Of a stretch of DNA of 5,810 nucleotides, positions 3,408 through 3,864 are shown one piece after another. Each line of letters starts with the position of its first letter. Within the stretch, counting starts at the first letter, position 1. This DNA is from a virus (taxonomy: Duplodnaviria; Heunggongvirae; Uroviricota; Caudoviricetes). Under the pieces are notes generated by a model that was not told the origin of the DNA, searched no databases, and saw nothing but the letters and a program-made list of their open reading frames with translations. Location: the IMG/VR virus record IMGVR_UViG_2671180846_000032; one strand, 5' to 3'. Made by a program: the position numbers and the translations under genes.

Positions 3408-3443
3408 TAGATGGTCACACGTCCTGCTGGTGGATGTGATTTC

Positions 3444-3493
3444 NNNNNNNNNNNNNNNNNNNNNNNNNNNNNNNNNNNNNNNNNNNNNNNNNN
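3444..3493. other. Run of 50 N (assembly gap or masked sequence)
   Basis: Exactly 50 consecutive n characters. Sequence on the two sides belongs to unrelated genes (prohead protease C on the right, unrelated ORF tail and exonuclease on the left). Confidence 0.99.
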
Positions 3494-3844
3494 TCCACCA
3501 TCGGATCGCTGGCAGCCTGTTGCAGACGGGCGATAATGCCGTTGTAACCGGTCATCCCCGAGTACGGCTGCAGCGCCCGCGTCCGGCTGACCAGCGTGCC
3601 GGACACCGGCAGCACGGCGATGCCGTTCATGACCTGATAACTGCGGGCCTGTCGTGGTCCGTCATCATCACCGGATAATGCCAGCGTCGCGAGTGCCTCC
3701 TGGGCAGTCAGGCTGTCGCCGGACACCGCATCCGTCAGGCGGCTGATCCCAAGCTGGCCTGCAAGCGCACAAAAGAAAACCCGCGCATAGGCGGGTTCAA
3801 GCATCAGCGGCTCATTAAAAGCCATGCTGGCAATATGCGGGAGA

Positions 3845-3864
<20 letters not shown>
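3494..3864 (-). CDS. C: Lambda-like prohead protease/scaffold protein C, N-terminal 123 codons only (cut by N-run)
   Basis: Translation from GTG at 3864..3862 gives [41 protein letters not shown]...IARLQQAASDPMV, which I recognise as the N-terminus of phage lambda gpC. Strong Shine-Dalgarno (GAGGAGGAG) lies 6 nt upstream of the GTG. The start overlaps the end of B by 20 nt, as in lambda. The ORF-track entry 3415..3999 is an artefact of an upstream in-frame ATG plus translation through the Ns. Confidence 0.85.

What the first reader, a model, noticed from the sequence alone, without database searches (positions are those of the whole stretch)
3408..3864. Lambda-like head module ends abruptly inside gene C at a 50-N run, with unrelated DNA on the other side
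On the minus strand the order A-W-B-C matches phage lambda exactly, including the overlaps, but C stops after 123 codons at the N-run. Sequence beyond the gap (3408..3443) does not continue lambda C as I recall it (after ...AASDPMV lambda C continues DGILLDMDTPGG, not ...NHIHQQDV-stop). The expected nu3, D, E and tail genes are absent; the DEDDh exonuclease and an IS66 element follow instead. Either the N-run is a scaffold join between two unlinked contigs, or this is a truncated lambda-like prophage remnant whose deletion endpoint is hidden in the gap. Any statement that the exonuclease is adjacent to the head genes depends on which is true.
Basis: partly seen in the sequence, partly recalled or inferred. 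Interest (0 to 1): 0.5.

Follow-up and report, generated by a model that had tools for sequence, protein, structure and literature searches.

The report
Scaffold gap joining two unlinked prophage pieces
The 50-N run is almost certainly an assembly join between two E. coli prophage fragments that lie hundreds of kilobases or more apart in finished genomes, so the apparent truncation of the lambda-like head gene next to an exonuclease gene is an artefact and not biology.

Summary
A run of exactly 50 N (3444-3493) cuts lambda-type gene C after 123 codons, and the DNA on the other side is not C. The juxtaposition is very probably not real.

Window 1-3443 is 100% identical to a Qin-type prophage locus of O26:H11-type E. 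coli. There an IS66-family element sits in xisR beside an 823-aa exonuclease gene. The "180-aa exonuclease" is only that gene's C-terminal domain, and its frame stays open into the gap.

Window 3494-3892 is 100% identical to a different locus, where a copy of the same IS, in the same orientation, interrupts gene C 91 bp further on. The rest of C, D, E and tail genes follow the IS there. Window 3728-5810 is 100% identical to a third, intact prophage.

All three loci occur in one closed genome (2014C-3057), at 4.61, 0.535 and 4.93 Mb. No complete E. coli genome (5,426), phage or plasmid record places the exonuclease and C segments together. In 136 genomes the IS and C'-B-W-A are collinear with 91 bp between them.

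Most likely a scaffolder strung two alternative right-hand flanks of a repeated IS in series. This is ordinary and of low interest.

The parts
1..2699 (+). Complete IS66-family insertion sequence (RefSeq label: ISCro1-family). It has tnpA 54-731, tnpB 731-1078 and the DDE transposase 1098-2669, with imperfect terminal inverted repeats that begin GTAA. The window starts on the first base of the IS.
   Evidence: Pfam hits are HTH_Tnp_1, TnpB_IS66 and DDE_Tnp_IS66 plus zf-IS66, LZ_Tnp_IS66 and the IS66 C-terminal element. The ends were defined by comparing two insertion sites. Identity between L001 and L002 starts at window base 1 and ends at 2704, which is the IS plus 5 shared bases of the target duplications.
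2700..2792 (-). 5' fragment of the xisR excisionase gene of a Qin-type prophage. Its first 8 bases, 2700-2707 (TTTTAACG), are the right-hand copy of the target-site duplication of the xisR::IS insertion.
   Evidence: Matches L002 6001-6093, annotated 'xisR, incomplete, missing C-terminus'. TTTTAACG is present on both sides of the IS in L002.
2865..3443 (-). Last 192 codons plus the stop of an 823-aa exonuclease ORF (Rv2179c-like 3'-5' exoribonuclease domain, DEDD type). It is cut at its 5' side by the N-run.
   Evidence: 0 mismatches to L002 and L027. The frame is open from 3443 with no stop before Met 3407. PF16473 scores E=1.3e-68 on the fragment, and the same domain lies at residues 642-813 of the 823-aa reference protein.
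3444..3493 (.). Run of exactly 50 N. It is a placeholder gap joining two contigs that are not adjacent in related finished genomes.
   Evidence: The flanks map to different loci. No collection record bridges them.
3494..3864 (-). 5' fragment of lambda-type gene C (S49 head protease/scaffold). It has a GTG start at 3864 and runs 123 codons plus 2 nt. This allele is interrupted by the IS 91 bp further on in O26-type genomes.
   Evidence: 0 mismatches over 3494-3892 to the C::IS loci L001 and L026, against 9-12 mismatches to intact copies.
3728..3892 (.). 165-bp stretch shared by both prophage alleles. Within it the right-hand contig switches from the C::IS-locus allele to the intact-prophage allele.
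   Evidence: Mismatch maps: L001 and L026 differ only at 3893 and beyond, while L006 and L025 differ only at 3727 and below.
3845..5446 (-). Portal protein gene B, 533 aa, complete.
   Evidence: ORF list. The exact protein is on record in 6,658 blocks, and in the ten long-contig loci shown it is always followed by an intact 439-aa C, then D and E.
5443..5649 (-). Head-tail joining gene W, 68 aa.
   Evidence: PF02831 gpW.
5646..5810 (-). 3' end of the terminase large subunit gene A, which runs off the window.
   Evidence: Reference annotations.

Best explanation
The window is a scaffold from a draft, probably short-read, assembly of an O26:H11-type E. coli. Such strains carry about ten copies of one IS66-family element and several near-identical lambda-like prophages. 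The N-run joins two contigs that are not neighbours in the chromosome.

The true continuations are inferred from relatives:
- Past 3443, the remaining 631 codons of the exonuclease gene of a Qin-type prophage.
- Past 3494, 91 more bases of gene C, then the right end of another copy of the same IS, then the rest of C, D, E and the tail genes.

The likely mechanism is inferred, not shown. The assembler collapsed the IS copies and extended the IS into one of its right-hand flanks (xisR'-exonuclease'). Read pairs linking the IS right end to its other right-hand flank (C'-B-W-A) then made the scaffolder place that contig downstream. The implied gap was negative, so a fixed minimum gap of 50 N was written.

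The right-hand contig is itself a path that switches between two prophage copies inside a 165-bp identical stretch.
For: 1. Window 1-3443 has 0 mismatches to the xisR::IS-exonuclease locus of O26:H11 11368 and of 2014C-3057.
2. Window 3494-3892 has 0 mismatches to the C::IS locus of the same genomes, where the IS right end lies 91 bp beyond window 3494.
3. Window 3728-5810 has 0 mismatches to an intact prophage in 2014C-3057 and NIID080884. One closed genome therefore explains every base, from three loci at 4.61, 0.535 and 4.93 Mb.
4. The IS, its orientation and the order IS then C'-B-W-A are the same in the window as at the C::IS locus. 136 genomes hold the IS and the right half in one 5,107-bp place, which is 2,699 + 91 + 2,317 bp and covers 86% of the window.
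5. No complete genome of 5,426, and no phage or plasmid record, has the exonuclease and C segments within the joining distance of 1.4 kb or 3.4 kb.
6. The xisR::IS junction occurs in about 60 of 5,426 genomes and the C::IS junction in 111. Most of the listed strains carry both.
7. The window begins on the first base of the IS. Position 3443 lies at a mosaic boundary, with 0-4 mismatches in 579 bases on one side and 3-223 in 300 on the other. Repeat-bounded contigs would be expected to end at such places.
8. The exact portal allele sits mostly on 2-10 kb contigs in public draft assemblies.
9. Both ORFs are cut by the gap: the exonuclease frame is open at 3443 and C at 3494.
Against: - No reads, assembly graph or source record were available. 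The source scaffold was not found in any collection, so the join cannot be tested directly.
- The right contig stops 91 bp short of the IS junction, and I cannot explain that end point. SNPs between the C copies lie on both sides of 3494.
- The same C allele exists uninterrupted in about 20 other genomes. The C fragment by itself does not prove that the source carries C::IS.
- The orientation agreement with the IS-bridging model would arise by chance in about 1 of 4 random joins.
- The mosaic in the right half could be a real recombinant, because recombination among lambda-like prophages is documented in O26:H11 (PMC10042803).
Confidence: 0.85

Rival explanations
1. The two contigs are unlinked, but the join carries no linkage information at all. 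Contigs were concatenated, or ordered against a reference, with fixed 50-N spacers. That both are right-hand flanks of the same IS is coincidence. This shares the main conclusion (not adjacent) and differs only in how the join arose. The 0.85 given to the best explanation covers non-adjacency in general. Of that, I put about 0.55-0.6 on IS-bridged read pairs and about 0.25-0.3 on this variant.
For: A fixed round gap length of 50 N. Both contigs are short and repeat-bounded, the kind that end up in arbitrary order. The contig end at 3494 is not at the IS junction.
Against: The order and orientation are exactly those of the C::IS locus, with the IS upstream of C'-B-W-A. This would happen by chance only about one time in four.
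Confidence: 0.27
2. The junction is real. In the source genome a rearrangement fused the 3' part of the Qin-type exonuclease gene to the 5' part of C, and the N-run hides a short unsequenced junction. Candidate events are illegitimate recombination, or mobilisation of the IS together with about 750-800 bp of its right-hand flank into C.
For: It cannot be excluded without reads. O26:H11 prophages recombine and invert frequently (PMC10042803). No complete genome reproduces the right half exactly (best 99.5%), so the source strain is not among the closed genomes.
Against: No such junction exists in 5,426 complete genomes, 50,697 phage records or 72,556 plasmids, nor in the pattern scans. Homologous recombination between the two IS copies would give IS-flank junctions, not an exonuclease-C junction (inference). 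Both sides are 100% identical to ordinary loci right up to the gap. I saw no homology between the sequences that continue past the two break points (by eye).
Confidence: 0.07
3. The 50 N mask 50 real bases of a contiguous but chimeric contig, for example an adaptor or linker removed after a contamination screen. The two sides would then have been joined by a chimeric read or library artefact and not by a scaffolder.
For: The exact round length, and the fact that both ORFs are cut mid-codon.
Against: There is no positive evidence for this. In references the flanks lie about 1.5 Mb apart, far beyond any mate-pair insert. The conclusion about adjacency would be the same.
Confidence: 0.03

Closest known systems
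C::IS locus of E. coli O26:H11 str. 11368 (NC_013361.1, about 634.5-639.6 kb) and the same locus in 135 other complete genomes
   Same: Same IS66-family element (0 mismatches over 2,699 bp), same orientation, and the same order IS then C'-B-W-A. The C fragment is identical over 3494-3892.
   Different: There the IS abuts C' directly, 91 bp beyond window 3494, with the 8-bp duplication TTTTATGT. The window has 744 bp of another locus plus 50 N in between. The B-W-A allele there differs at 34-35 positions.
xisR::IS locus of a Qin-type prophage (NC_013361.1 about 2.164 Mb; NZ_CP027387.1 about 4.61 Mb)
   Same: Window 1-3443 is 100% identical. It holds the IS, the TTTTAACG duplication, the xisR 5' fragment and the 3' end of the exonuclease gene.
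   Different: In the references the exonuclease ORF continues for another 631 codons and is followed by ydfD and dicB. In the window it stops at the N-run.
Phage lambda head module Nu1-A-W-B-C-nu3-D-E (J02459 / NC_001416)
   Same: Same gene order and overlaps, and 99.2% nucleotide identity over 3494-4400.
   Different: Only A' (3' end), W, B and the first 123 codons of C are present in the window.
Repeat-induced scaffolding errors in short-read bacterial assemblies (general knowledge, not tested here)
   Same: A collapsed multi-copy IS with several alternative flanks, contigs that end at repeat boundaries, and a fixed-length N placeholder.
   Different: The scaffolder, library type and read evidence for this particular join are unknown. 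From memory only: some scaffolders, such as abyss-scaffold, write a minimum gap of 50 N. I did not verify this.

Membership tests
Assembly/scaffold join between non-adjacent loci (artefact) | A run of N of fixed, conventional length between otherwise clean sequence | tested here: met
   Exactly 50 N at 3444-3493.
Assembly/scaffold join between non-adjacent loci (artefact) | The two flanks map at near-perfect identity to different, distant places in finished genomes of close relatives, and nowhere together | tested here: met
   0 mismatches on each side next to the gap. The loci are 1.5 Mb apart in 11368, and lie at 4.61 and 0.535 Mb of the 5.65-Mb circular chromosome of 2014C-3057. 0 of 5,426 genomes have them in one place.
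Assembly/scaffold join between non-adjacent loci (artefact) | Contig ends coincide with repeat boundaries | tested here: inconclusive
   The window start is the first base of the IS. Position 3443 lies at a mosaic boundary among exonuclease alleles. The end at 3494 has no recognisable boundary. Within-genome copies were not all retrieved.
Assembly/scaffold join between non-adjacent loci (artefact) | No sequencing read spans the join | not testable with these tools
   No reads are available, and the source record was not found.
IS66-family insertion sequence | Three ORFs: tnpA, tnpB and a DDE transposase (tnpC) | tested here: met
   PF01527, PF05717 and PF03050 plus PF13005, PF13007 and PF13817.
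IS66-family insertion sequence | Terminal inverted repeats and 8-bp target-site duplication | tested here: met
   Imperfect inverted repeats starting GTAA (18 of the first 26 bases match, by eye). The 8-bp duplications are TTTTATGT in L001 and TTTTAACG in L002. The window holds only the right-hand copy.
Lambda-type head module | Order A-W-B-C with overlapping stops and starts, and high identity to lambda | tested here: met
Lambda-type head module | C carries the S49 peptidase domain and the nested nu3 scaffold | tested here: not met
   The 123-aa fragment has no Pfam hit. The S49 domain lies at residues 150-297 of intact C. It is absent only because the contig ends.
Prophage remnant truncated by deletion | A contiguous deletion junction, with the downstream head and tail genes missing from the genome | tested here: not met
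   The junction is not sequenced (it is N). At the matching locus in relatives, the rest of C, D, E, FI, FII and the tail genes lie just beyond the IS. Removing the IS and one duplication copy restores a 439-aa C.
Stand-alone DEDDh (Rv2179c-like) exonuclease gene | A complete ORF with its own start, bounded upstream by a stop | tested here: not met
   The domain is present (PF16473, E=1.3e-68). The frame is open upstream to the gap, and the 100%-identical reference ORF is 823 aa. A separate 180-aa product occurs only where a nonsense codon splits the ORF, for example in L020.

The most novel reading that the evidence does not exclude
The junction is physically real. In the source strain an IS66-family element carried about 750-800 bp of its right-hand flank (xisR'-exonuclease') into gene C of a lambda-like prophage, or an illegitimate recombination fused the two prophages. 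This would be a documented case of IS66-mediated flank mobilisation, or of an inter-prophage fusion.
Probability: 0.06. Interest if true: 0.3.

Novelty: not a real feature. Interest (0 to 1): 0.07.

Why it matters
It matters mainly as a caution. Any statement that the exonuclease gene is adjacent to the head genes, that this prophage lacks nu3, D, E and tail genes, or that a 149-aa C-derived protein or a 180-aa exonuclease is encoded here would be an artefact of the gap.

The underlying biology is ordinary and already annotated in RefSeq. O26-type E. coli carry a lambda-like prophage inactivated by an IS66-family insertion in the head protease gene C. They also carry a Qin-type prophage with the same IS in xisR.

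Tried and rejected
- Searching for the source scaffold or any bridging sequence. I used a gapped pattern across the N-run in viral, GTDB-representative genome and metagenome collections, and found nothing. The pattern does match literal N locally.
- Exact-product look-ups of the chimeric C'-X18-NHIHQQDV ORF, with V or M as first residue. It is not on record.
- The look-up of the 180-aa exonuclease product returned Qin-type loci where the big ORF is split or truncated, not the source.
- I fetched 40 kb next to the intact prophage of O26 11368, hoping for another copy of the 823-aa exonuclease gene to define the within-genome repeat boundary. That prophage uses RecE/RecT instead, so I abandoned brute-force retrieval of all copies.
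- I considered that the C allele might be diagnostic of the IS-interrupted locus and rejected it. The same allele occurs uninterrupted at 100% over 600 bp in about 20 genomes.
- I considered recombination between the two IS copies as a source of a real junction and rejected it. It would only exchange IS flanks and cannot place the exonuclease fragment next to C'.

Full report
**What is in the window**

The window holds the following features:
- A complete IS66-family element at 1-2699 on the plus strand, with tnpA 54-731, tnpB 731-1078 and the DDE transposase 1098-2669.
- A 93-bp 5' fragment of an excisionase gene, xisR, at 2700-2792 on the minus strand.
- The 3' end of an exonuclease gene at 2865-3443 on the minus strand.
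- Exactly 50 N at 3444-3493.
- On the minus strand, the first 123 codons of lambda-type gene C (3494-3864), portal gene B (3845-5446), W (5443-5649) and the 3' end of terminase gene A (5646-5810).

The head module A-W-B-C is lambda's, with 99.2% nucleotide identity to J02459 over 3494-4400. C stops at the N-run after ...AASDPMV, and what lies beyond the gap is not C.

**Two corrections to the observation**

The short reading 'NHIHQQDV-stop' at 3415-3443 is an out-of-frame reading of the exonuclease gene. In that gene's own frame, 3408-3443 translates as EITSTSRTCDHL with no stop before the Met at 3407.

In the reference genomes that are 100% identical to this stretch, the ORF is 823 aa, and the Rv2179c-like DEDD exonuclease domain occupies residues 642-813. 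The '180-aa exonuclease' is thus the C-terminal domain of a larger gene that the gap cuts, just as it cuts C. A separate 180-aa product is called only in genomes where the big ORF is split or truncated. L020 is an example: a TAA lies at the codon equivalent to window 3441-3443, and 631 + 1 + 11 + 180 = 823.

**Where the two sides come from**

Window 1-3443 has no mismatch to a Qin-type prophage locus of E. coli O26:H11 str. 11368 at about 2.164 Mb. There the IS sits inside xisR, flanked by the 8-bp duplication TTTTAACG, and next to it lie the exonuclease gene, ydfD and dicB.

Window 3494-5810 maps to a lambda-like prophage of the same genome at about 0.635 Mb. At that locus a second, identical copy of the IS, in the same orientation, interrupts gene C, flanked by the duplication TTTTATGT. 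The C fragment extends 91 bp beyond window 3494 before it meets the IS right end. The rest of C, D, E, FI, FII and tail genes lie on the other side of the IS. Removing the IS and one duplication copy restores a 439-aa C. In relatives, C is therefore disrupted by a clean insertion, not by a deletion.

**The right half is a mosaic**

Against the C::IS locus, the 34-35 mismatches all lie at 3893 or beyond. Against intact prophages, all mismatches lie at 3727 or before. The switch occurs somewhere in a 165-bp stretch, 3728-3892, that is identical in both alleles.

No complete genome has this combination in one place; the best match is 99.5%. In the closed genome of strain 2014C-3057 (NZ_CP027387.1), every base of the window is matched at 100%, but at three loci:

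| Window span | Position in 2014C-3057 | Locus |
|---|---|---|
| 1-3443 | 4.61 Mb | xisR::IS and exonuclease gene |
| 3494-3892 | 0.535 Mb | C::IS |
| 3728-5810 | 4.93 Mb | intact lambda-like prophage |

**Adjacency tests**

- With a query spanning the gap (2670-4400), no place in 5,426 complete E. coli genomes, 50,697 phage records or 72,556 plasmids covers both sides.
- With the whole window as query, which gives a joining distance of about 3.4 kb, the best single place covers 86%. That place is the IS plus the right half, spanning 5,107 bp (2,699 + 91 + 2,317), and it is found in 136 genomes. The IS at the left of the window is therefore the usual neighbour of the C fragment.
- The xisR::IS junction is present in about 60 genomes and the C::IS junction in 111. 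Most of the listed strains, O26:H11 and relatives, have both.
- Pattern scans across the gap found nothing in the viral, GTDB-representative or metagenome collections. The chimeric ORF product is not on record.

**How the join most likely arose (inferred)**

Both sides of the N-run are right-hand flanks of copies of the same IS. These genomes hold roughly ten copies, judging from the number of places per record.

A short-read assembler collapses such copies. If the IS path was extended into one flank (xisR'-exonuclease'), read pairs from the other flank (C'-B-W-A) still point into the IS. A scaffolder would then place that contig downstream of the IS contig, in exactly the order and orientation seen here. 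Because the implied distance is negative, about -650 bp, it would write a fixed minimum gap.

Several observations are consistent with repeat-bounded contigs:
- The window starts on the first base of the IS.
- Position 3443 lies at a boundary between a highly conserved module and a highly variable one in the exonuclease gene. There are 0-4 mismatches in 579 bases on one side and 3-223 in 300 on the other.
- This exact portal allele is found mostly on 2-10 kb contigs in public draft assemblies.

From memory only, at least one scaffolder (abyss-scaffold) uses 50 as its default minimum gap. I did not verify this.

**What remains open**

- I had no reads and could not find the source record, so the join is not directly tested.
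- The right contig ends 91 bp short of the IS junction for no reason I can see.
- The orientation agreement would occur by chance in about a quarter of arbitrary joins. A plain concatenation of unlinked contigs with 50-N spacers therefore remains a serious variant, and it gives the same conclusion about adjacency.
- The C allele is also found uninterrupted in about 20 other genomes. The inference that the source carries C::IS rests on the lineage-specific xisR::IS junction and on the co-occurrence of the two insertions.
- The mosaic in the right half might be a true recombinant, since lambda-like prophages of O26:H11 recombine with each other (PMC10042803).
- A real exonuclease-C fusion cannot be excluded. 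It would need an extra, unprecedented event, because recombination between the two IS copies only swaps IS flanks. I give it about 6-7%.

**Verdict**

The juxtaposition is very probably an assembly artefact. The underlying elements are known and annotated in RefSeq: an IS66-family insertion in lambda-type C, the same IS in xisR of a Qin-type prophage, and multiple near-identical head modules. Interest is low.

Noticed in passing
window 3494-5810 (switch zone 3728-3892): The right-hand contig is a mosaic of two prophage alleles. The SNPs at 3505-3727 are those of the IS-interrupted C locus, and 3893-5810 is identical to an intact prophage. No complete genome has this combination in one place (best 99.5%). 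It is either an assembly path switch or a real recombinant.
   Followed up: partly
window 3441-3443; L020 9965-9967: In some genomes the 823-aa exonuclease ORF is split into 631 + 180 aa by a TAA at exactly the codon that is the last one before the N-run in the window (GAA here). The 180-aa product is on record in 612 blocks of the protein collection, so the domain is often annotated as a separate gene.
   Followed up: partly
window 2865-3443 and the 300 nt beyond it in L015-L024: There is a sharp mosaic boundary in Qin-type prophages near window 3443. The exonuclease-domain side is nearly invariant (0-4 mismatches in 579). The upstream side varies from 3 to 223 mismatches in 300 and includes deletion endpoints about 10-14 bases from the break.
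   Followed up: partly
H279, NZ_CP022154.1 (strain ABWA45) 2589316-2595699: Here the IS and the C'-B-W-A block are collinear but 1,368 bp apart instead of 91 bp. This suggests an independent insertion of the same IS further into the head module, near D/E.
   Followed up: no
public records hit (e.g. NZ_CP104294.1, NZ_CP068597.1, NZ_CP082339.1, MW057783.1): Records of about 48.5 kb are labelled as plasmids of Stenotrophomonas maltophilia, Paenibacillus sonchi and Salmonella enterica. A further record of 48.4 kb is labelled 'Campylobacter phage CJLB-4'. All match lambda B/C at 99.2% with lambda-like lengths, so they probably represent lambda DNA contamination in those records.
   Followed up: no
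L002 553-3100 (NC_013361.1 about 2.1677-2.1702 Mb): The integrase gene of the same Qin-type prophage in O26:H11 11368 is additionally split by an IS600 (IS3-family) insertion. This prophage has lost both int and xis to IS insertions.
   Followed up: no
window 2700-2707; L001 3324-3331 and 6031-6038: Both target-site duplications of this IS begin with TTTTA (TTTTAACG in xisR, TTTTATGT in C). This may hint at a target preference, but it rests on only two sites.
   Followed up: no
window 1: The window begins exactly on the first base of the IS left inverted repeat (GTAACCGG...). The left edge is probably also a contig end at a repeat boundary, and the left-hand target duplication and the xisR 3' fragment are missing.
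   Followed up: partly
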